Source: the human T2T-CHM13v2.0 reference genome, Homo sapiens. Taken from it: DNA of 64,000 nt. The notes below the pieces were generated by a model, which saw nothing but the letters and a program-made list of their open reading frames with translations, searched no databases and was not told the origin of the DNA. The position numbers and the translations under genes were made by a program. The stretch lies in NCBI RefSeq assembly GCF_009914755.1, contig NC_060941.1; one strand, given 5' to 3'. This document shows, piece after piece, positions 10,198-59,010 of this stretch (position 1 is the stretch's first letter; every line of letters starts with the position of its first letter).

Positions 10198-11839
10198 TGA
10201 TTAATCTTTGATCATCAAAATTGCATGATGGATTTTTCATTTACAAAAGCATTTGTTATATATAAAGAATATTTAGAATTATTAAGCCTTCAATAACATG
10301 CATCCAAGATGTTCTATTGGGTACTCTGGGTGTAGAACAGATAAACCCTCAACTTTTTCTTGCAGGTACTTGCATAAGACACATGGATAGGAAACAGTTT
10401 GGCAGAAATGAAAAGAATTACAATTATTTTCATTAAACAACTAAAATAAAAAATGTATAATATGTGGATAAGTTCCATACACCCTCATGGTATGTATATT
10501 ACTTGTGAAGTATTGACTATGTAGCAGGCATTGTACCAAATATCTTACATTTGTTTCATTTTCACGCTTTAATAGAACCTTATGAACTAGTTTATATTCT
10601 TATTAGTCTTTTAGGGGAATACTCAAAAGAAGCATTAAAAACTTAAAACAAACAAACAAACAACTTGTCCAAGGTTAAAGAGAAAGTAAGCCTAATATGT
10701 CTTAGTGTAGCCAAGAAAGCCGTAAAGAATACAATTTGCTAAGCTTGCTGAAACTGCTTCATCTTCTTGGAATGTTTCATCTTTTTTTGTCCACTCTGCA
10801 AACTCCTACTCATGTGTCAAGACCCAGTTAAAATATTTCCTCCTCAATAATATCTTTCCTGCTAAGCTACCCCATTCATGTATCATGATTTCCTGCCTTG
10901 TGCTCATAATTTATACATTCTCCTGTATCATAGTCATTTACTTCTGTCTTTCCACCACGTGCAATGCAAATACCCTGAAGGCTTGCGCTATGGCATTTAT
11001 TCTCGTTACCATGATACTCAGCACAGAGAACACTGGTGGTAAATGTTTGTTGAGTGAATGAAGGTTTTTTTGATGACATAGAGGCATGTAAGGTCCTTTA
11101 AAAAATGTATATATCTTTTGACTTCTGGATAAAAGGGAGGAAAACATCCCAAACAAAGAAATCATAATTTCATTTCAGGAAGACTAAACTCATTTGTGTG
11201 ATAGGTAACATGTCACCTGATAAATAACATACGTGGAAACTGCGGAAGTCAAGATTCAATTTATAGAATGAGACTTGTTTATAGATAACCAAGAATACAG
11301 TGTTGAACGTGCATGCCTATATTCACACAGTAAAAAGACAGGAAGGAAGTAAACGCCAGATGGTAGCACTGGTTCTCCTTCACCTCCTGACTTCCTCGTT
11401 TTACTCTTGTTGATTGAAATAACTATTATTTCCTGTTTCGTATCAGTCAGCCAAAAATGTTTGCTGATAATCTGTTGTCTTAGCTTAAATTCTACCCAAT
11501 GCAAACCTTGAGAAAAAGACCTGAGTGCACATAATTTATTTGGGGGATGATCCCAGGAAGCACAAGTGAGGAAACGGTGAAAGTAAGACAGGAAAGGTAG
11601 AAAATCCCAACAGTGTTTGTGTTAATGGTAAGGCCCCCACTGTGGGCAGCTGGGGACGAACCCCAGGGACAAGCCTGAGGCTGGAGACACTTGGCCACCA
11701 TGATTGCACACCTGTAAAATCCTGTAGAGTCAGCTGGGTATTAGTGTGAATCGCGAGATCAGATAAAATATGAACTTATACTAATCCATAGACTTTTTAT
11801 ACACTAGCAATAATTCTCTCTAAAATTTAATGGAGAAAA

Positions 11840-12022
11840 ATCACACACTGGGGCCTGTCGTGGGGTGGGGGGAGGGAGGAGGGATAGCATTAGGAGAAAT
11901 ACCTAATGTAAATGACGAGTTAATGGGTGCAGCACACCAACATGGCACATGTATACATATGTAACAAACCTGCACGTTGTGCACATGTACCCTAGAACTT
12001 AAAGTATAATAAAAAAAAAAAG
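11840..12022 (+). mobile_element. L1PA 3' end fragment
   Basis: ggggcctgtcgtggggtgggggg...cctagaacttaaagtataat followed by poly(A). Confidence 0.9.
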
Positions 12023-12755: not shown

Positions 12756-13224
12756 TGAGAGAAAGATCAAGTTTGACACTGGGATAAATCAAACTGCAGG
12801 GCAATCTCCGTGGAAGTCTCAGATGAACCTATAGGGAGTTCTGGAGATGAGATGACCCATTAGAGGCATCCCTAGTTGGGGAGAAATGTGGGTCTTTATA
12901 GTTTCATCCTAAAAAAAGGGCATGACTTTGGACGAAAAGAAAAAAAATCAGTCTCCAGCATACCTGTGAGTTTTCACTAGGCCTGCTTCCTTCATTTCCA
13001 TCACCTGCCTGGCCGTGAAGGTGGCCCTCTCTACATGGCAGCATGAACTCCCCATTGAAACTCTGCCAGTCAGAATGAAGGAGATCCACTGTGTTTGTGT
13101 TGAGGATTCATTACACATGACTCAGTAGAAAATACATGGACTTTGCTAAACCACCTAATAGCTGCTTTTACTGGAAAAAAAAAGAAATTGAAATACAGTG
13201 TTTTAAAAGATCACAGCTCTGTGC

Positions 13225-13650
13225 ACAATAGTAAAGACATGGAATCAGTCTAGGTGCCCATCAACAGTGCATTGGATAAAGAACATGTGACATTTTCACA
13301 CCATGGAATACTACACAGCCATAAAAAAGAATGAAATTTTGTCCTTTGCAGCAACATGGATGTGGCTGGAGGACATTATCTTAAGCAAATTTTTCCAGGA
13401 ACAGAAAACCAAATATTGCATGTTGTCACTTACAAATGGGAGCTAAACATTGGATACACATGGACACAAAGATGAGAACAACTGGGGACTCCAAAAAGGG
13501 GGGAGAGAGGGAGAGAGGAAGGGCTAAAAATGACCCACTGCTCAGTACCTGGTGACAGAATCATTTGTAGCCCAAACCTCAGCATCACACAACATGTAAC
13601 AAATACGAATATGTACTCTTTGATTCTAAAATAAAAGTTGAAATTATTTT
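13225..13650 (+). mobile_element. L1 3' end fragment (L1PA/PB)
   Basis: L1 ORF2 C-terminus/3'UTR motifs. Confidence 0.8.
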
Positions 13651-16304: not shown

Positions 16305-16570
16305 AAGGTATGTTCTCACTCCTAAGTGGGAGTTGAACAATGAGATCACATGGACACAGGGAGGGGAACATCACACACTGGAGCCTGTCGGGGGTGAGGG
16401 ACAAGGGGAGGGAGAGCATTAGGACAAATACCTGATGCATGTCGGGCTTAAAACCCAGATGACGGATTGATAGGTGCAGCAAACCATCATGGCATATGTA
16501 TAACTATGTAACAGACCTGCATGTTCTGCACATGTATCCCAAAACTTAAAGTAAAATTAAAAAAAAAAAA
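16305..16570 (+). mobile_element. L1PA 3' end fragment
   Basis: atgttctcactc...cttaaagtaaaatt followed by poly(A). Confidence 0.85.
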
Positions 16571-25864: not shown

Positions 25865-26360
<496 letters not shown>

Positions 26361-28744: not shown

Positions 28745-29006
28745 GTTTTTTAATTTTTTTAATTATACTTTATGTTCTAGGGTACATGTGCACAACGTGC
28801 AAGCTTGTTACATAGGTATACATGTGCCATGTTGGTTTGCTGCACCCATCAACTCATCATTTACATTAGGTATTTCTCCTAATACTATCTCTCCCCCAGC
28901 CCCCCACCCCCCAACAGGCCCTGGTGTGTGATGTTCCCCACCCTGTGTGTGATGTTCCCTGCCCTGTGTCCAAGTGTTCTCATTGTTCAATTCCTACCTG
29001 TGAGTG
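28745..29006 (-). mobile_element. L1PA 3' end fragment with a small internal tandem duplication
   Basis: Reverse L1 3'UTR; gtgtgtgatgttccc occurs twice. Confidence 0.85.
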
Positions 29007-41622: not shown

Positions 41623-44600
41623 CTGCCCAGCTGTCTTGTTGGTACTACATTTTCCTTGTTTTTGTTTACTTAATAACTAAGTGATTATCAGATTACACAA
41701 TAATGTTTGCCCATTTAATGGTTTAAACTTGTTGAAAACAAAATTTTCTTGTCCGGATGTAATAAGATCTATCATGTCTGCCTTCTCTCATGATTCACAC
41801 CTCGGTAGCATCTTCTAGACCACGTTCTCTTCCTCTTCCTCCACAGAGGGCTGTTCATGTGATTCCCTGCATTTGGAATTGCATTTCTTACTCTCGCTTC
41901 AGGTACCCTCTACCAAAATGGGATTTGGTCAGTCACACTTCCAGTTATGCATTCCCTCTAGTGACCAATAGCGAGGAAAACCCATCTGCTCAGTGTGGCA
42001 TTCCTAGTCTGTGGGTCATTATTAAGCAATAAGCAAAGGGATAGCAATACCTGCATGTGGCCTTGGTGACCTCTACACTATTGAAATGGGTTTCCCTGAA
42101 TGTTTCAAATTTTGGGTCATATTCCATATCCTTAAATTTTTATACTTGGTGTTACTAATGGGTCAGTTTCTTAAATTGATACTTTGCTCTCCTATATTTT
42201 GTGTCATGTCTCTCCAGTTAATCTATTAGATTCCGGAAGACATAGTCCCATTTTTATTCCATAACTCATTGTTTTTTTTAAATGCCTCTAACTGTCTGTT
42301 AACATAATGCAGGTGTGTGTTTTCACTTTTTAAAAAAGAAATTTGAGATAATTGTAGATTTACATACAGCTGTAACAAACAGTCCCAGGAGAGGCTGTCT
42401 GTACTTCACCCAGGCTCCCTAACACTGTGTAACACCTGTATAATACTTTTAAGAATCTATCTACCCCCACTACTGTGTCTTGCATGATGTGCTTAATATA
42501 GAAAGAACTCAAGCTCAGTGAAATTAAAAACAATTAGTTATTTTTCAGATTGACGTATAATATTGTATTTACCACATACAACATAATATTTTGAAGTATA
42601 TATACATTGTGGAAGGATTAAATCTAGCTAATAAATGCATTACCTCTCATACCTATCATTTTTTTGTGGTGAGAACGCTTAATATCCATTCTTAGAATTT
42701 TTCAAGAATACAGTATGTACAATATATCATCATTAACTATAGTCACTATGCTATACAGTAGACCTCTTGAACTGATTCTTCCTGTCTAGCTACAATTATA
42801 TGTCTTTTGACCAGTATCTCCTCAAGCCCCTGACTCCCTAGCCACCCCTAGCCTCTGATTATCTTCATTCTCTGCTCTACTTCTATGATATCAACTTTTT
42901 TGAGTGCGATCATGTGAGTGAGATCATGTGCTATCTGTCTTTCTATGACTGATTTACTTCACTTAGCATAATTTCCTTGAGATGTATCCATGTTGTCACA
43001 AATGACAGAACTTCCGTCTTTTTACGGCCAAATAGTATTGCACTGAGTATATACTGCATTTTCTTTATCCCCTTACTCATTGGTGGACACTTGCACTGTG
43101 TGCATATCTTGGCAATTGTGAATAGTGCTGCAATAAATCTGGACATGCAGTTATTTCTTCAACATACTAAGTTCATTTCCTGTAGATATATAAGGTACCC
43201 AGAAGTGGATTGCTGGATAATACGGTAATTCCAGTTTTAATTTTTTGAGGAACCCTTATATTGTTTTCCATAATGGCTGAACTAATTTATATTCCCACCA
43301 ACAGTGTACGAGGGAGTTTTTTTCACATCCTTGCCAATACTTGTCATCTTTTGTCTTTTTGATGATAACCATTCTAACAGGAATAAGGTGATATCTCAAT
43401 GTGGTTTCGATTTGTATTTCCCTAATGATTAGTAATGTTGAGTACTTTTTCACAAACCTGTTAGCCATTTGTATGTCTTCTTTTGAGAAATGTCTAGTCA
43501 GGTCTTTTGCCCATTTTTAATCAGGTTTTTGTTTTCTTGCTTGTGAGCTGTTTGAGCTCCTTTTGTATTTTGGATGTTAACCCCTTATGAGATATATACT
43601 TTATAAATATTTTCTCCCATTCTGTAGGTTATCTCTTGACTCTTTTTGTGGTTTCCTTTGCTGTGTGGAAGCTTTTTAGTTTGATGTAATCTCAGTCATC
43701 CAATTTTTCTTTCGTCGCCTGTGCTTTTGAGGTCATATTCAAAAAGTCATTGCCGAGACCAATGTCATGAATCTTTCCCCCATGCTTTCTTCCAAAAATT
43801 TCATAGCCTCTGATCTTACATTCAAGCCATTAACCCATTTGAACTGATTTTTGCATACTGTAAGAAATAAGGGACTAATTTCATTCTTCTGCATGTGGAT
43901 ACCCAGTTTTCCTAACATAATTTATTGAAGAAACTGTCCTTCCCCCATTCTTGGCATCTTTGTTGAAAATCAATTGGTTATAAATGAGTGACTTTATTTC
44001 TGGTCTCTCTATTCCATTCCATTGGTCTGTGTGTCTGTTTTTATGTCAGAATGATGGTATTTTGGTTACTGCAGTGTTGTGGTTTATTTTGAAGTCAGGG
44101 AGTGTGGTGCTTCTAGCTATATTCTTAGTGTCCAAGATCACTTTGGTTTTTTGTGGTTCTATACAAATTTTAGAACTTTTTAAAAATATTTCTGTGAAGA
44201 ATGTCATTGGTATATTTATAGGGATTGTGTGAGATCTGTAGATTGCTTTAATAATATTTGGACAATATTGGAATAAACACAGGATATCATTCCATTTATT
44301 TGTGTTTTCATCAATTTCTTTCATCTGTGTTTTACAGTTTTCAGTGTAGATATCCTCACTTCCTTGGTTAAACTTGTTCCTAAGTATTTTATTTTATTGT
44401 AACTATTGTAAATGAAATAGTTTTCTTGATTTCTTTTTCAGATGGTTTGCTATTAGTGTATAGAAAACCTACTGGGTTTTGCATGTTGATTTTATACTCT
44501 GCAACCTTACTGAATTTGTTTATTAGTTCTCACAGTTTCTCAGTGAAGTCTTTAGGGTTTTCTACATATAAGATCATGTCATCTGCAAATAGAAACAATG

Positions 44601-45600
44601 TAACTTCTTCCTTTCCAATTCAGATATTTTTAAAATATTTTATTCGTGTAAATGTATAATTTTGTTACATGGATATATTGCATAATGGTCGAGTCAGGAC
44701 ATTTAGAGTATCCATCACTGAAATAACGTGCATTCTACCCATCAAGTAATTTCTCATCATCCTTCCCCCTCCTACACCCCTGCCCTTCAGACTCTCCATT
44801 GTCTGTCATTCCACACTCTACCTCCATGTGTACGCATCATTTGGCCCCACTGTAACTGAGAACATGCAGTATTTGTCTTTCTATGTCTGAGTTGTTTCAC
44901 TTAAGATAATGGCCTCCGGTTCCATCCATGTTTCTGCAAAAGACATGGTTTCATTATGTTTTATGGCTGAAGAGTATTCCATTGTTTATATATAGCACAT
45001 TTTCTTTATCCAGTCATCCACTGATGGACATTTAGGTTGATTCCATATGTTTGCTACTATAAATAGTGGTGCAATAAACATATGTGTGCAGGTATATTTT
45101 TGGTATAATGATTTCTTTTCCTTCAGGTAGACACTCAGTCATGGGATTGCTGGATCAAATGGTAGTTCTAGTTTTAGTTCTTTGAGAAATCTCCATACTG
45201 TTTTCCATAGCGGTTGTACTAATTTACATTCTCAACAACTGTTTATGTGTTCCCTTTCAGCTCCATCTTCATCAACATTTGTTATTTCTGTCTTTTTGAT
45301 AGCAGCCATTCTTACTGGTATAAGATGATCTCTCATGGTGGTTTTAATTTGCATTTGTTTAATGATTAGTGATGATAAGCATTATTTCAAATGCTTATTG
45401 GCCATTTGTATGTCATCTTTTGAAAAATGTCTGTTCATGTCCTTTTCCCCTTTTTAATGGAATTATTTGCAATGTTTTTGTTGGTAGAGTTCCTCTTAAA
45501 TTCTGGATATTAATCCCCTGTTGGATGGATAGTTTGCAGATATTTTCTCCCATTCTGCAGGTTGCCTGTTCACTCCATTGATTATGTCTTTTGCTGTGCA

Positions 45601-46616: not shown

Positions 46617-49600
46617 TAGCTTCATGTCTTACATTTAAGCCTTTAATGCATCTTGAGTTGATTTTTGTACATAGCGAGAGATAGGGATCTGGTTTCATTC
46701 TTTTGCAAAGGCAATCCAATGTACCCAGCATCATTTATTTATTGAATAGGATTTCCTTTCCCGTGTATGTTCTTATCAACTTTGTCAAAAATCAGTTTGC
46801 TGTAAGTATGTGGCTACACTTCTGGGTTCTCTATTCTGTTCCACTGATCTATGTGTCTATTTTTAACCCCAAACCATGTTGTTTTGGTTACTATAGCCTT
46901 TTAATATAATTTGAGAATGGATAACGTAATGCCTCCAGCTTCCCCACCCCCCTTTCGGATTGCTTTAGCTACTTGGGCTCTTTTTCACTTCCTTATCAAT
47001 TTTAGGATTTTTTTCCCTAATTCCATTAAAAATGACATTAGTATTTCAGTAGGAATTGCACTGAGTCTGTAGACTGCTTTGGGCAGTATGGTCATTTTAA
47101 CAGCATTAATTCTTCTGATCCGTGAGAATGAGATGTTTCCCATTTGTTTGTGTTATCTACAATTTCTTTTGTCAGTGTTTTGTAGTTTTCCTTGCAGGTA
47201 TCTTTCACCTCATTCGATAAATATATTCTTAAGTATTTTTATAACTATTGTAAATGAGATTGCATTCTTGATTTGGTATTCAGCTGGATCATTATTGGTG
47301 TATGCAAATGCTACTGATTTTTGCTTGTTGATTTCATATTCTGAAACTTTACTGAATTTGCTTATCAAATCCAAGAGTTTTTTGGTGGAGCCTTTAGGGT
47401 TTTCTAGATATAAGATCATGTCATCTTTTGCTGTGTGAAGCTTTTTAGTTTAAATAAGTCCTGTCTGCCAATTTTTGCTTTTGTTGCCTGTGCTTTTGAG
47501 ATCTTAGTCATGAATTCTTTGGCTAGATCAAGGTCTAGAAGAGTATTTCCTAGGTTTTCTTCTGGTATTTTTATAGTTTCATATTTTACATGTAAGTCTT
47601 TGATTTATCTTGAGTTGATTTTTGTACATGGTGAGAGAAATGGATCCAATTTCATTCAGCAAACAGAAATAATTTGCCTTTCTGTTTTCAAATTTGAGTA
47701 CTGTTTATCTCTTTCTCTTGCTTGATTGCTCTGGCTAGGGCTTCCAGTACTATGTTGAATAGGAGTGGTACAAGTTGTCATCCTAGTCTTGTTCCAGTTC
47801 TTAGGGAGAATGCTTTCAGTTTTTCCCTATTCAGTGTGATGTCAGCTATGGGTTTGTCATATGTGACCTTGACTATGTTGAGGTACATTCCCTCTATACC
47901 TAATTTGCTGTGAGTTTTTTCATAAAAATATTCTGAATTTTTAAAAATGCTTTTTTTTGCATCTACTTAAGTGATCATATGCTTTTCATCCTTCATTCTA
48001 TTAATGTGACGTATCATGTTTATTGATTTATGTGTGTTGGCCTAACCTTGCATCCCCTGAGTGAATCTCACTTGATCACGGTGAATGATCTTTTTAATAT
48101 GTTGTTGAATAAGGTTTCCTGGTATCCTGTTGAGTATTTTGTATTTTTGCACCTATGTTTATAAAGTATATTGGCCTATAATTTTCTTTTCTTGTAGTGT
48201 CCTTATCTGGCTTTGGTAAAGAGTAATGCTGTCATTATAAACAGATGTTGGAAATGTTCCCTCCTCTTCACTTTTTGTGGAAGAGTTTGATAAGGATTGG
48301 CATTAATCCTTCTTCAGATGCTTGTTAGAATTCACATGTGAAGCTATCTGGTATTGGGCTATTCTTTGCTGGGAGGTTTGTTATTGCTACTTTAATCTTC
48401 TTATTCATTATTGGACTCCTCAGATTTTCTATTCTTCATGTTTCAGTCTCGGTAGGTATTATGTTTCTAGGAATTCATCCATTCCTTCTAAGTTATCCAT
48501 ACATTTACACACAAACATACACAGACATACACATACACATACACATACTCATAAGTGCATGTAAAACTGATAAAACTAGAACAAGTTTTGTGGATTTTAC
48601 CAATGTCAGTTTGTGGGGTTTGACATGTACTCTAGTGATGGAATACGTGACGACTGGGGAAAACTGGGTGAAGGGTGCATAGGACTTTGCTGTACTTTTT
48701 TTTCTACTTTCTGTGAATTTATAGTTATTTCTAAATAAAAAGTTAAAAATATATATATGAGGATTATTGGGAAAAAAAGGGGAGCATGCTTTTACTTGCC
48801 AATCTCATTGAATATTTACGACATCCTTACTATATTTTGTGGCTATTGTGATCATTTCCTTAAAGAAAAGCAACCCTAGGCTGAGATAGTTAACATGTAC
48901 AAGAACATACCTGGTATGTAGTACAGTCAGAATTCAGCCCCAACTCTCTCTAATTCCCAAGTGCACAGTCTATACTGTATATAGAGCTTCCTTATCAGTT
49001 TAAATCCCTCCCTTTAAATAAGTTTAAATCACTTCATGGGATGCAGTTTATTGACGACTTTCTATTTCGGTGGCTGTTGCAATTCATAGCTCTTATGTTA
49101 GATGTATTAGGTTCAAATATGCCTCCTTTGATACATTTTCCTATTTCTGCTGTGAGACAGAATCCTAGTTTTGATTAAAAATCTCATTAGAGAATATCAA
49201 TTTAATTTTTCAATTGTATGATCCCCTGATAACATGTACTCTCGGGTTGTGCAGAAAAAGAGACAGAAATATGCATAGGCCAATTTATTAATAATAAACA
49301 GTGAAAGAGAACCATACACACAGATTGTCTCAAGTCTACCTAAATGATACCTCTTTTATTACACAGAACAGCTGTATTTTTTCTTTTATACACTTTTTTC
49401 TCTTTAAACTCATTGTTTTGTTGTCATTTTAGAAGTTCATTTTTTTTTATGTTTACCTAATTGATACCTCATCTGGAGGATTGGACCATCTATGAATCTT
49501 CTTCCTCTCCCACAGGTTGACCCATAGCTAGTGGTAACTGATGTCTGAGTGCAAAATTCCAACCACCTTGCCTCTCAGAAAGATGGGTCTGTGATACTAA

Positions 49601-49832
49601 TCACACTCTAGAGCTTCCTATGGGGTCAGAAGAGAAAATAATTCAATAAAAATCATGTTCTGCCTTAGGTTTTTAAACTCCTCTATTCTGCTTCCCAGTT
49701 TCTTACTGATTTCTCCTGAGAGCATTTTCTTATAAATCACTTATCCAAGAATCCTTGTTTTCGGTTCTATTTTGAGTGAATCCAACTTAGCACACCTCTT
49801 AAACACAGTTTCTTTTAGAATAAAAGTTACTA

Positions 49833-50195
<363 letters not shown>

Positions 50196-50244
50196 GAGAG
50201 AGAGAGATAAAGACAACTAGTCCAGAGATAACTGTGCCAAAACT

Positions 50245-50256
50245 GAGAAGAAGAAA

Positions 50257-50290
<34 letters not shown>

Positions 50291-50386
50291 AGAAGAAGAA
50301 GAAGAAGAAGAAGAAGAAGAAGAAGAAGAAGAAGAAGAGGAGGAGGAGGAGGAGGAGGAGGAGGAAGAGGAGGAGGAGGAAGAAGG
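50245..50386 (+). repeat. (GAA)23-(GAG)n trinucleotide tract
   Basis: Pure GAA at 50268-50336, followed by GAG repeats. Confidence 0.95.
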
Positions 50387-51428
50387 ATAAGAAAAATATT
50401 TATTTAGAACATTTACCTATTTACTAGACAGTATACTCAAGAGTTGACCGTGACACCAGGGTAACCACTGATATTGTATAAAAATGATTTAATTATGTTA
50501 CGTGAAATAGGCCAAGCACAGAAAGACAAATTGCTAATGGAATGGAACTCATGAAGATAAAGAATAGATTGCTGGTTATCAGAGTCAGAGGAGGGTGCCT
50601 GTGGGAAATGAAGAGGTGGATTGACGTGTACAAATATAAGTTAGAGATAAAAATATGACCTAGTATTCAATATAACTGTAGGATGACTATAGTTAACAAT
50701 GATCTATTAAACATTCCAAAGTAGCTACAAAAGAATAATTCAGATGTTCCTAGCATAAAGAAAAGATAAACTGTGATGGATAATCCAATTACCCTGATTG
50801 GATCTTTACAAATTATATGGATGTATCAAAATTTTATATGCGCATCTGCTACATATCAATAAAAAAGGAAAAATGTTTTGAAGGGCACTAATACTGAGGT
50901 TAGGAACACTGGTGTCTTAGATTGGGTCCCCACTGGAGCCGACCCAGGAGTATATTTGGGAGGTGGTCCCAAGAAGTGCTGTATGGAACACGAAAAATGC
51001 TCCAGGAAAGGGAGGGAAGTGAATACAAGATGAGTTAATGATCAGAATAGCCCTGTAGGTAGCTGGAATTTGGTGTCTCTGAGGACCACTGACATGCTGG
51101 TACAACATGCTCCCAACTGGAGGAGAAATAACTAAAGCATGTGTTCACCAACTCTCACTCATTTGTTGAATACTATTCCAAGAGGCTTTAACTCTACAGT
51201 CCAGAGCTTGCTCCTTGGCTAGAGAAACTCTTCAAGAAGAGAGTTCCAGGTGCTTGCTCTAAGAAACCACCATTGTATATTAGAATAAAGTGTGCTGAGG
51301 AAATAGAGGTGGTGCCCCTGAAATTACATTCTGCAGAGAAGAACAACAGAAAAATTGACTGGTAATTGACCACACTCAAAAAAGAAAAATAATGAGACAC
51401 AGTATCTGTATATTTCTATGCCTGAAAA

Positions 51429-54700: not shown

Positions 54701-57686
54701 GATCACCACAATGAGCTCTATTACTGCAGGCATGCAGTAGAAAGGCAGGTTGAGAACTTCTCGTCTAGAAACAACCACTGTATGTGTATAAGAAGACCTT
54801 GAAGCAGTTTATGATGAGGATTACTTAGGTGTGTCACACTTTAGTAACCTCAGTATTAGTTCACACTTACTGCCAACCACTTACTGCCACTAACACTGTG
54901 TTAACTCCTGCATGCAAACTTGAAACATTCATGAAAGTGGAACATTTACTAAGGTAGATGAGGCATTTCTAATCCTCCAAGAGTGTTCAGAACACATCTG
55001 GAAAATGCATTTCAATCCAGGCTAGAAGGATAAAGATAAATTGGGGTTTATGAAAAGCAAAGTTGCTGTGAGGGTGGCATTATGATCAATGAGGAACAAA
55101 TGGAAACACTTTGGAAATGTAACCTAAAAAGGAGAAAAGTGGAACAAAGCAATGGCAGTGCAGCCTGAAGGGGCTCTGTATGAGAATGGACTTCCTCAGA
55201 TGGCTGCCATGGGCTGATATAGGATAGGGAAGATAGGATGTTCCTAGGGAGAAACAAAATCTGACACAACATGAGGAAGGTGCTTTATGAAATGGCTGCC
55301 TCTAGAGATAATCAGGGGAGGGGGTTTCAGTGTGAGCTGGTGTTTCTGACTGAGGCACATGCAAGAGCCAGATGGAGGGAATTGGATGAAATTACTTTGA
55401 GCTTCCCTCTCTGCACTCAGGTCCATGTAAGTCTAATAAGTGGAATATAATGTTATACTGTTAACCAGTTTCTACTGCTGCCCTGGTCCTGATTTCCAGG
55501 CTTACACAACCAGGATGATAACAATCTGGCTCCTGAGTGGGCCCCTGCTTCAGCACTGGCTGGTGTTCTGAGTCTGCACTGGCTCTGATGCACCCAGACA
55601 CAGCATCGTATTGAGGTCCTGAGCCTTTGTCCTCAGTCAGAATGAACAGAAGCAGGTTCCAAGCTGTTACGGGGTTAAAACCCTGGTGAGCCCGTTTATG
55701 GTGTATGAGAACAACTCTAAGATTTCCTCGAGAACTTGAATTATGGGAAAAGAATCACATCCTTGAAGAACCCTGATGACTGGTACCTACCGATGACTCA
55801 GTGGAGATCACTTTTATTTACATGAATTGACTATTTTTTTTCTTTGTAAGGTCAGCGTGTGTGTTTTGCTTAATGTAAATTTGCATTATGTTTAGAAATC
55901 TCTCACGATTTCTTCTAGTACTTCAGCACTTTCATTTTTCCCCAGCTTTATTGAGGTAGAGTTGGCAAATAAAATTTTATGTATATCAAGGGTACAACAT
56001 GATGCCTTGATATGTATATATTGTGAGATGATTATCACAACCAAGTTAGTTAATACCTATCACCTCACGTAGTTATTGTTTCCTGTGTGTGTAATGAGAA
56101 CAATTAAGATCTACTTTTTCAGAAAATTTCAAGTACTCAATACAGTATTATTAACTATAATCACCATGCTAGTTACTAGATCCCTAGAATTTAGTACCAA
56201 TGTCAGATTTTGGGATTTGACATGTACTATGATCCTATGAGAAGCAACCACTGAGGGAAACTGAGTGAAGGGTACAGGGAACTTTGTCTTATTCAACTTC
56301 ATGTTAATCTATAGTTATTTCAAAATCTATCGTTATTTACAAAAGTAAAAAAAAAAGAGGCTAATTGGTAGTAAAAGACAGCATGCTTTTTTTTTGGATA
56401 TTTTCATATATTTATTCTTATTTTTCATGTGTCTATGTTTAACTACATGGGATTTTTTTTTCGATGTGTGGATATGTATATAGGAAAATTCAGAGATTAT
56501 TCTTTTTAAGATTGGGTAATTGGCCAGTTTGTGAGCATTTACAGTGTTTTAAATAACTTTTATCTTTCAATTAGAAACACACATCAGGCATATCATACAC
56601 TCTGTCATCATTTTTCCAATAGTTATACATGTACTTTATTTTCCTTATCTTATTGAGTAGTTCATAAGACTTTTGTTTAAAATACTTTCTGTAAAACTCG
56701 GAGACAATAAGGTGGGGCTCTGCATTTATGTTCTTGTTGAGTTCTTAGTAGTCCGAATCTTATGCAATTCACCAACTATATTTCTACAAGCAATGTAAAT
56801 TGGGAAAAAAATCGGGTACTGAAATATTTATTTTTATAAATGAGCTAAACTTAAAAATGATCCAAAGGGTAAGTTCACAGCAAGCATTCATTTCTTTTCC
56901 CTCCATGTAATTTGCATGCAAGTCAGGCATTTTCACATATTTTTATAAATCTTTTTCTTGATTTGTTCTCCTTCTTACAATAATTTTAATACACAATTAT
57001 TTTTACTCTAGTTAATGGGATTTTTTAAGTGCCCTGAATTCCATTTCAGAACTATGAAGGGAATTAAATATTTATGTTACATGGATAATAGTATTCAATA
57101 TTCATCAAAGCATGCAAAATAAGCAATTAAGAATATGCAACTGTATCCCATTATGAACATATCCTTGATACGCCTTCCAAACTTAAATTCCAAATTCTTT
57201 CTGCTATTCAGCTAGAAGTTTTTGCTAATATTTTCTTCATGGAAAATTGTATTTTCTGCATTGATTAATAATTAATAACAAAAAAATTTCCATTTTTTGA
57301 AATAGCCTATTTCTTATTAATTTTTTAATCATTCAATTACCCCCCAGCTTATACAAAGAATTATATAGTAATTATTTTTTAACAGTTAACAAGTCACAGT
57401 AGGTTTGGGTTATAACGAACATACTGTGGCTTACAAGATAATATGGAATAGTGGCTAACCCATGAATATAGTGAGAAAACTTTTTAAAAGTTATATTGGA
57501 GTAATCCCTTAGCTAATAATTATTATTGTAGTTTAGCTATTTGGCTATGACAAACTAATACTAGTTGCACCTCACTTGAAAATATATGATAGCAACTTAG
57601 TACATGGTATTGTACATATCTTCACTTGGTTAAACAACTTTTAGAGGATATGCTTAGTGATTTATATTTCAACTCTAAATTGTTAG

Positions 57687-58449
57687 TTTTCTTTTTTTTT
57701 TATTATACTTTAAGTTTTAGGGTACATGTGCACATTGTGCAGGTTAGTTACATATGTATACATGTGCCATGCTGGTGCGCTGCACCCACTAACTCGTCAT
57801 CTAGCGTTAGGTATATCTCCCAATGCTATCCCTCCCCCCTCCCCCCACCCCACAACAGTCCCCAGGTGTGATATTCCCCTACCTGTGTCCATGTGATCTC
57901 ATTGTTCAATTCCCACCTATGAGTGAGAACATGCAGTGTTTGGTTTTTTGTTCTTGCGATAGTTTACTGAGAATGATGATTTCCAATTTCATCCATGTCC
58001 CTACAAAGGACATGAACTCATCATTTTTTATGGCCGCATAGTATTCCATGGTGTATATGTGCCACATTTTCTTAATCCAGTCTATCATTGTTGGACATTT
58101 GGGTTGGTTCCAAGTCTTTGCTATTGTGAATAGTGCCACAATAAACATGAGTGTGCATGTGTCTTTATAGCAACATGATTTATACTCCTTTGGGTATATA
58201 CCCAGTAATGGGATGGCTGGGTCAAATGGTATTTCCAGTTCTAGATCCCTGAGGAATCGCCACACTGACTTCCACAATGGTTGAACTAGTTTACAGTCCC
58301 ACCAACAGTGTAAAAGTGTTCCTATTTCTCCACATCCTCTCCAGCACCTGTTGTTTCCTGACTTTTTAATGATTGCCATTCTAACTGGTGTGAGATGGCA
58401 TCTCATTGTGGTTTTGATTTGCATTTCTCTGATGGCCAGTGATGATGAG
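57687..58449 (-). mobile_element. Young 5'-truncated L1PA (L1PA2/3-like)
   Basis: Intact ORF2 C-terminus ([33 protein letters not shown]...SLIGGN) and 3'UTR very close to the young L1 consensus. Confidence 0.92.
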
Positions 58450-59010
58450 AGAGCATGCTTTTATTTGTCAACCAGGCACCTTTATCTCATTGACATTTTA
58501 TGATTACCTTCATGTGTTTTTGAGTTATTATGATCCCTTCTTAAGAGAAAAGTAATCCTAGGTTGACAGAGTTTAAATGCCATGTCTAAGATCATAGGTG
58601 GCATGCAGTACAGTCAGAATTCAGCCTCAACTCTGTATAATTCTCAAGTCCACAGAATATACTCTACATTGAGCTGCTTCTGTTTAAATTAGTTTAAATC
58701 ACATCATGGGATGCAGCTTATTGAAGACAGTTTTTTTGTGCTGGCAGTTATATTCCACAGCTTTCATGTTATATGTGTTAGGTTCAAAAATGTCTCTTAA
58801 ATTCTTCTCCTGTTTCTACTATGAGACTGAATTCTGGCTTGGATAAAATCTAATTGGAGAATGCCAATTTAATGTTTTAATTATTAGGGTGTTTGACAAC
58901 ATGTACTCTTCTTGTGTGGTGCAGAAAATAGACAGAAATATACATATACCATTATATTATAACAAATGAAAAGAGATGAGCATTTTTGGTGCTTTTGAAC
59001 ACTATGAAGT

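What the first reader, a model, noticed from the sequence alone, without database searches (positions are those of the whole stretch)
56376..58462. Young L1PA insertion carrying an apparent ~1.3-kb 3' transduction, with an empty paralogous site in the window
Seen, reading the minus strand: TSD copy (58448-58462, + strand agagagcatgctttt), 5'-truncated L1PA (58449-57702), A-tail (~57687-57701), ~1.29 kb of AT-rich non-L1 sequence (57686-56396), AATAAA (tttatt 56411-56416) 15 nt before a second A-tail (56387-56395), then the second TSD copy (56376-56390, agacagcatgctttt; 14/15 identical). The TSD starts AAAAG after T, an L1 endonuclease-type site. The paralogous flank at 48598-49320 aligns to 56196-56390 and then directly to 58450-58980, with a single ggagcatgctttt at 48781-48793, which looks like the pre-insertion state. 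Established: L1 read-through past its weak poly(A) signal mobilises 3' flanking DNA. Inference: 56396-57686 was imported from the source L1 locus elsewhere in the genome and now sits between KRTAP4-4 and KRTAP4-3.
Basis: partly seen in the sequence, partly recalled or inferred. Interest (0 to 1): 0.8.

Follow-up and report, generated by a model that had tools for sequence, protein, structure and literature searches.

The report
L1 insertion carrying chromosome 9 DNA
A dead, 5'-truncated L1 retrotransposon between two hair-keratin-associated genes carried about 1.3 kb of chromosome 9 sequence with it when it inserted, which is an ordinary example of a well-known process.

Summary
On the minus strand, a 15-nt target-site duplication (14/15 identical) brackets four parts: a 748-nt L1 3' fragment, a 10-nt A-run, about 1.3 kb of non-L1 DNA ending 15 nt after an AATAAA, and a 9-nt A-run. 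The L1 fragment covers the last 180 ORF2 codons plus the 3' UTR. A paralogous flank at 48598-49298 is colinear with both flanks and holds one copy of the target.

In this assembly the 1.3 kb has exactly one other locus, chr9:30819115-30820414, with 26 substitutions in 1291 aligned bases (2.0%) and 6 indels. There it is continuous with its flanks and has no A-tail.

No L1 abuts the chr9 locus: it is an unoccupied source site. The homology begins at TT|GAAAAC, an L1-endonuclease-like motif that fits only 0.5-1% of local positions.

Best reading (about 0.85): a 3' transduction from a source L1 that is absent from this assembly, dated by recalled rates to roughly the great-ape period. The L1 has the GAG motif of L1PA2 or older.

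Ape and monkey orthologs could not be checked. The mechanism is textbook, so interest is low.

The parts
58448..58462 (-). 5' copy of the target-site duplication (in L1 orientation AAAAGCATGCTCTCT). Its last 2 nt overlap the L1 start as microhomology.
   Evidence: (D3)
57702..58449 (-). 5'-truncated L1 3' fragment, 748 nt: end of ORF2 plus the 3' UTR, with the GAG trinucleotide 94 nt from its 3' end.
57909..58448 (-). Open 180-codon remnant of L1 ORF2, equal to ORF2p residues 1096-1275 of 1275. Stop codon at 57906-57908.
57692..57701 (-). Internal A-run (10 nt) after the L1 3' end: the source element's own A-tail, copied as part of a read-through transcript (inferred).
56396..57691 (-). Transduced non-L1 segment (about 1.3 kb), derived from chr9:30819115-30820411 plus strand. 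26 substitutions in 1291 aligned bases and 6 indels.
56411..56416 (-). AATAAA polyadenylation signal, 15 nt before the terminal A-run. The same hexamer is present in chr9.
56387..56395 (-). Terminal A-run of 9 nt. Four belong to the TSD and up to three are also templated in chr9, so few are untemplated.
56376..56390 (-). 3' copy of the target-site duplication (AAAAGCATGCTGTCT in L1 orientation).
48598..49298 (.). Paralogous flank, collinear with both flanks of the insertion and lacking the 2-kb insert. A single target copy lies at 48781-48793.

Best explanation
This is one L1 retrotransposition event by target-primed reverse transcription that carried a 3' transduction.

Proposed sequence of events:
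1. A source L1 sat in plus orientation at chr9:30819115 of this assembly's coordinates.
2. Its transcript read through the L1's own weak poly(A) signal and four further AATAAA/ATTAAA hexamers, and was cleaved 15 nt after the fifth, at a CA.
3. L1 endonuclease nicked the KRTAP4-4/KRTAP4-3 intergenic DNA at AT|AAAAG.
4. Reverse transcription copied the 1.3-kb chr9 flank, the source's short A-run and the last 748 nt of L1.
5. The cDNA then joined at a 2-nt microhomology, leaving a 15-nt target-site duplication.

The copy was dead on arrival. The source L1 is not in this assembly, so it was most likely never fixed.

Shown: the anatomy, the unique chr9 parent locus, the direction chr9 to chr17, and the unoccupied paralogous site. 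Inferred: the former presence of an L1 at chr9, and the date.
For: - TSD: 14/15 identical and placed exactly at the L1 5' end and after the terminal A-run. The chance at fixed positions is 2e-7.
- The paralog has one target copy and no insert.
- The L1 fragment is collinear with L1 3' ends and with ORF2p residues 1096-1275.
- The 1.3 kb has exactly two loci in the assembly: itself and chr9. This held for the 1291-nt query, for its first 100 nt and for a 28-nt pattern with up to 3 mismatches.
- chr9 is continuous with its own flanks and has no A-tail and no TSD, so it is the parent.
- The chr9 homology starts at ctgTT|GAAAAC. TTGAAA is one of 7 endonuclease-type hexamers (a set I recalled). Together these fit 64 of 12907 positions (0.5%); a relaxed T|RRRR rule fits 126 of 12907 (1%).
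- The homology ends at AATAAA + 15 nt + CA.
- The L1 part ends at its natural 3' terminus plus an A-run, as expected if L1 and flank were contiguous in DNA.
- Passages of PMC7026601 list these hallmarks of target-primed reverse transcription. The introduction of PMC9311842 describes the read-through mechanism.
Against: - No sense-strand L1 abuts chr9:30819115 in this assembly. Megablast over 10.1 kb upstream gave nothing.
- A sensitive blastn found only a 39-nt and a 70-nt old L1-like piece, on the opposite strand, about 1.8 kb away. The source element is therefore inferred, not seen.
- No sibling insertion shares the transduced tag.
- Both A-runs are short (10 and 9 nt).
- The target nick site is AT|AAAA rather than the canonical TT|AAAA.
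- The pre-insertion state is shown only by a paralog about 72% identical, not by an ortholog.
Confidence: 0.85

Rival explanations
1. RNA-level chimera. L1 reverse transcriptase began on a polyadenylated 1.3-kb chr9 transcript, reached its 5' end and jumped to the 3' end of an L1 mRNA. On this reading no L1 ever sat at chr9.
For: chr9 shows no L1 at the junction. The internal A-run is short. One TSD pair would bracket such a chimera as well. Chimeric retrocopies of this kind are known from the literature (recalled, not read here).
Against: The chr9 junction would then be a transcript start. It coincides with an endonuclease-like TT|GAAAAC that fits only 0.5-1% of local positions. The L1 part ends exactly at its natural 3' end. 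From recall, transductions are far commoner than chimeras with L1 as the 5' part.
Confidence: 0.06
2. Retrocopy of a longer chr9 host transcript that merely contained a sense-oriented L1 as a passenger, mobilised in trans rather than started at the L1's own promoter.
For: The copy is 5'-truncated inside ORF2, so the start of the RNA is unknown. The structure downstream would be identical.
Against: It also needs an L1 at chr9, which is absent. From recall, L1 shows strong cis preference, so an L1-promoted read-through RNA is the commoner substrate. No annotation of chr9 was available to show a host transcript.
Confidence: 0.06
3. Two separate events: a retrocopy of the chr9 RNA inserted first, and an L1 later landed exactly at its 5' edge. 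Alternatively, a DNA-level duplication from chr9.
For: None specific. It is considered only because the chr9 locus has no L1.
Against: The L1 has no TSD of its own: its flanks are AAAAGCATGCTCTCT and GAAAACTAACAATTT. The only TSD brackets the whole 2-kb composite. A DNA duplication would not end at a poly(A) site with an added A-run.
Confidence: 0.02

Closest known systems
L1 3' transduction (read-through of the L1 poly(A) signal, first shown in cultured cells and then catalogued in the human genome). Described in the introduction of PMC9311842 and in passages of the Hoyt et al. preprint 10.1101/2021.07.12.451456.
   Same: L1 3' end + A-run + unique DNA + AATAAA + A-run, all inside one TSD. 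It is interchromosomal, with a unique parent locus.
   Different: The parent locus carries no L1 in this assembly. At about 1.3 kb the segment is longer than the 7-997 nt range of polymorphic events in PMC9311842 (abstract). It is an old, presumably fixed event, not a polymorphic or somatic one.
Ordinary 5'-truncated L1PA insertion
   Same: Endonuclease-type target, 15-nt TSD, truncation within ORF2, 2-nt microhomology at the 5' junction.
   Different: It carries an extra 1.3 kb of non-L1 DNA and has two A-runs.
Chimeric retrocopies made by template switching of L1 reverse transcriptase (recalled, not read here)
   Same: Two unrelated RNA-derived parts inside one TSD.
   Different: Here the 5' part ends at the natural L1 3' terminus with an A-run, and the parent junction is endonuclease-like. 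Both point to contiguity in DNA.

Membership tests
L1 3' transduction | An L1 3' end with its own A-run is followed directly by non-L1 sequence. | tested here: met
   L1 homology ends at 57702, the A-run is 57692-57701, and then chr9-derived DNA follows.
L1 3' transduction | The extra sequence ends at a second poly(A) signal followed by an A-tail. | tested here: met
   AATAAA at 56416-56411, then 15 nt, then a 9-nt A-run. chr9 has the hexamer but no tail.
L1 3' transduction | One target-site duplication brackets the L1 plus the extra sequence, at an L1-endonuclease-type site. | tested here: met
   15-nt TSD, 14/15 identical. The site is AT|AAAAG, a relaxed form of the consensus quoted in PMC7026601.
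L1 3' transduction | An unoccupied pre-insertion site exists. | tested here: inconclusive
   Shown only in a paralog about 72% identical within the window. Orthologs cannot be reached with these tools.
L1 3' transduction | The extra sequence has a parent locus elsewhere in the genome. | tested here: met
   One other locus, chr9:30819115-30820414, with 2.0% substitutions.
L1 3' transduction | The parent locus carries, or once carried, an L1 directly 5' of the segment. | tested here: inconclusive
   No L1 is there in this assembly. The junction is TT|GAAAAC, as expected of an unoccupied allele. Other haplotypes and apes were not available.
Template-switch chimeric retrocopy | The junction is set by RNA ends, not by a genomic L1 insertion site. 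| tested here: inconclusive
   The junction fits an endonuclease-type site found at 0.5-1% of positions. That argues against this family but does not exclude it.
L1Hs (Ta or pre-Ta) | ACA or ACG trinucleotide in the 3' UTR. | tested here: not met
   The window has GAG. PMC7026601 passages call GAG indicative of L1PA2 or older. The sequence context used to locate the trinucleotide is recalled.

The most novel reading that the evidence does not exclude
No source L1 ever existed at chr9. Instead, the L1 reverse transcriptase fused a 1.3-kb unspliced chr9 transcript to the 3' end of an L1 mRNA by end-to-end template jumping. This would be an L1-headed chimeric retrocopy that mimics a transduction.
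Probability: 0.06. Interest if true: 0.35.

Novelty: new member of a known kind. Interest (0 to 1): 0.2.

Why it matters
It matters little beyond annotation. About 1.3 kb of unmasked 'unique' DNA between KRTAP4-4 and KRTAP4-3 is a retro-copied piece of 9p, not native chr17 sequence. That is relevant when aligning or dating the KRTAP4 duplications.

The insert lies 528 nt downstream of the KRTAP4-3 3' end and about 3.9 kb upstream of the KRTAP4-4 start. It interrupts no annotated exon or RefSeq functional element.

It also records an L1 progenitor at 9p that is no longer present in this assembly. That is a common fate for source elements.

Tried and rejected
- Pfam gave 0 families for the ORF2 remnant. 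Identity was instead shown against solved LINE-1 ORF2p chains.
- Rfam gave 0 matches in 56000-59000.
- A search for sibling insertions with the same tag found only the two known loci.
- A search for an L1 next to the chr9 locus found none in sense orientation.
- Literature: one paper holds 'transduction', 'LINE-1' and 'KRTAP4' together, and its only KRTAP4 mention is unrelated. So I found no description of this event in print.
- The CHM13 transduction catalogue of Hoyt et al. (Table S13; preprint passages) may list it, but bioRxiv supplements are closed.
- Three look-ups of older papers by id failed because the papers are not held.
- The exact L1PA subfamily was not assigned, because no repeat library is available. 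I made only pairwise comparisons and a count of private substitutions.
- A nested two-event origin was rejected because the L1 has no TSD of its own.

Full report
**Observation**

I read 56100-59000 and 48500-49400 directly. On the plus strand these are:
- AGACAGCATGCTTTT at 56376-56390.
- A T-run at 56387-56395.
- tttatt at 56411-56416.
- AT-rich sequence up to 57691.
- A T-run at 57692-57701.
- The reverse complement of an L1 3' end from 57702.
- AGAGAGCATGCTTTT at 58448-58462.

The repeat finder reports the two 15-mers as family D3, extended to 19 nt at 89%. It is one of 18 short families, so the repeat is not remarkable on its own. What matters is its placement exactly at the two outer junctions. 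With local base composition, 14 or more matches in 15 at fixed positions has probability 2e-7.

**The L1 part**

The 748-nt stretch 58449-57702 (minus strand) matched 40 scored copies, out of 4312 candidates in the assembly, at 97-98% over positions 1-748. It holds an open frame of 184 codons. The 180 codons at 58448-57909 match solved LINE-1 ORF2 protein chains at residues 1096-1275 of 1275, with E 2.5e-119. Pfam returned nothing for this piece.

The element is therefore truncated inside ORF2 and runs to its natural 3' end. At the 5' junction, two bases (58448-58449) can be read either as TSD or as L1, which is a 2-nt microhomology.

Against the 29 nearest fetched copies it differs by 1.7-2.8% (mean 2.5%) and has 4 private substitutions in 748 nt. 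At the diagnostic 3' UTR trinucleotide it has GAG. In the 30-sequence alignment, which includes the window copy, 25 carry GAG, 4 carry ACG and 1 carries AAG. Passages of PMC7026601 give ACA as L1Hs-Ta, ACG as pre-Ta and GAG as L1PA2 or older. The sequence context I used to locate the trinucleotide is recalled. I did not assign an exact subfamily.

**The paralogous unoccupied site**

Within the window, 56195-56326 aligns to 48598-48736 (72.7%) and 58484-58966 aligns to 48802-49298 (72.3%). The non-L1 insert has no other match in the window. Global alignments of the junction show that the single GAGCATGCTTTT of the paralog aligns to the end of the left flank and also to the start of the right flank. 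This is the picture expected of a site before insertion. It is a paralog and not an ortholog, so I count it as supportive rather than decisive.

**The second locus**

The window's own assembly could be searched. The 1291-nt query 56396-57686 gave two matches from two candidates: itself and G000:C9:30819120-30820411 on the opposite strand, at 97%.
- BLAST of the 5-kb region against chr9:30809000-30821911 gave one alignment, window 57691-56393 to chr9 30819115-30820414.
- A global alignment has 26 substitutions in 1291 aligned columns (2.0%; 17 transitions, 9 transversions, 5 in CpG context) and 6 indels. One indel is a G-run of 13 in chr9 against 6 in the window.
- The first 100 nt, and a 28-nt pattern with up to 3 mismatches, again hit only these two loci. 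No sibling insertion therefore shares the tag.

**Direction and mechanism**

On chr9 the segment is continuous with its flanks and has no A-tail and no TSD. On chr17 it ends in an A-run inside a TSD. The transfer therefore went from chr9 to chr17.

The chr9 homology ends at AATAAA + 15 nt + CA, a canonical cleavage arrangement. Four other AATAAA/ATTAAA hexamers lie upstream in the segment and were passed over.

The homology begins at ctgTT|GAAAAC. No sense-strand L1 lies next to it. Megablast found none in 10.1 kb upstream. A word-7 blastn found only 39-nt and 70-nt old L1-like pieces on the opposite strand, about 1.8 kb away. chr9 is therefore an unoccupied source site in this assembly.

TTGAAA belongs to a set of seven endonuclease-type hexamers that I recalled. 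Together these occupy 64 of 12907 positions (0.5%) of the chr9 stretch. A looser rule (T followed by four purines, at least three of them A) fits 126 of 12907 positions (1%). A junction set by something other than an L1 insertion would rarely fall on such a site. Together with the L1 part ending exactly at its own 3' terminus plus an A-run, this favours a former L1 at chr9 that was transcribed through into its flank.

**Rivals**

- An RNA-level chimera made by template jumping needs no source L1. It fits the empty chr9 site, but it makes the endonuclease-like junction a coincidence.
- A host transcript carrying a passenger L1 would give the same product, but it also needs the missing L1.
- A nested pair of events is excluded because the L1 has no TSD of its own.

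I put the transduction at about 0.85.

**Date (inference)**

The copy and its parent differ by 2.0%. From recalled genome-wide figures, this lies between human-gorilla and human-orangutan divergence. With recalled neutral rates of about 1e-9 per site per year, it gives roughly 8-10 million years. The GAG motif and the small distances to other L1 copies agree with an L1PA2/L1PA3-age element. A polymorphic source would not persist that long, so the source was probably never fixed.

**Comparison with what is known**

The mechanism is textbook (introduction of PMC9311842; passages of the Hoyt et al. preprint). Hoyt et al. catalogued transductions in this very assembly, with 183 L1 3' events in their top confidence bin. 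Their table is in a supplement I could not open, so I cannot say whether this event is listed. Their passages refer to identified parent elements, so an event whose parent locus lacks an L1 may sit in a lower bin. That is my inference.

One paper holds 'transduction', 'LINE-1' and 'KRTAP4' together, and it is unrelated.

**Verdict**

The finding is an ordinary, well-formed example of a known process. Its only mildly unusual aspects are the 1.3-kb length and the vanished progenitor.

Noticed in passing
window 57909-58448 (minus strand): The 180-codon ORF2 remnant has no stop codon despite its inferred age of several million years. At about 1% divergence per lineage this is unremarkable.
   Followed up: partly
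L002 1497-2796 (chr9:30819115-30820414): The read-through transcript passed four AATAAA/ATTAAA hexamers, at segment positions 371, 710, 868 and 1060, before using the fifth at 1277.
   Followed up: no
window about 57340-57346; L002 about 1843-1856: A G-run is 13 long in chr9 and 6 long in the chr17 copy. A 6-nt AAGAAT indel lies near window 56495.
   Followed up: no
window 11837-12020: Another L1 3'-end fragment, on the plus strand, is 90.8% identical to the L1 3' UTR of the finding over 185 nt. Older L1 pieces lie at 272-809, 13216-13468, 16310-16570, 25871-26357, 28754-29006, 42986-43440 and 44857-45376.
   Followed up: no
window 49298-51409 versus 58966-58990: The flank homologous to the DNA just downstream of KRTAP4-3 (24 nt from its 3' end) lies about 2.1 kb downstream of the KRTAP4-4 3' end. 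The KRTAP4-4 unit therefore holds about 2 kb of extra sequence there, part of it masked as repeat at 49867-50215 (hub table).
   Followed up: no
L007-L035 (29 L1 copies from G000): In the 30-sequence alignment (29 fetched copies plus the window copy), 4 carry ACG (the pre-Ta motif per PMC7026601), 25 carry GAG and 1 carries AAG. The window's L1 therefore sits close to the youngest L1PA lineages.
   Followed up: partly
chr9:30817148-30817309 (in L003/L002): A short, old L1-like fragment lies on the minus strand about 1.8 kb upstream of the source site (71-87% over 39 and 70 nt). It is unrelated to the transduction.
   Followed up: no
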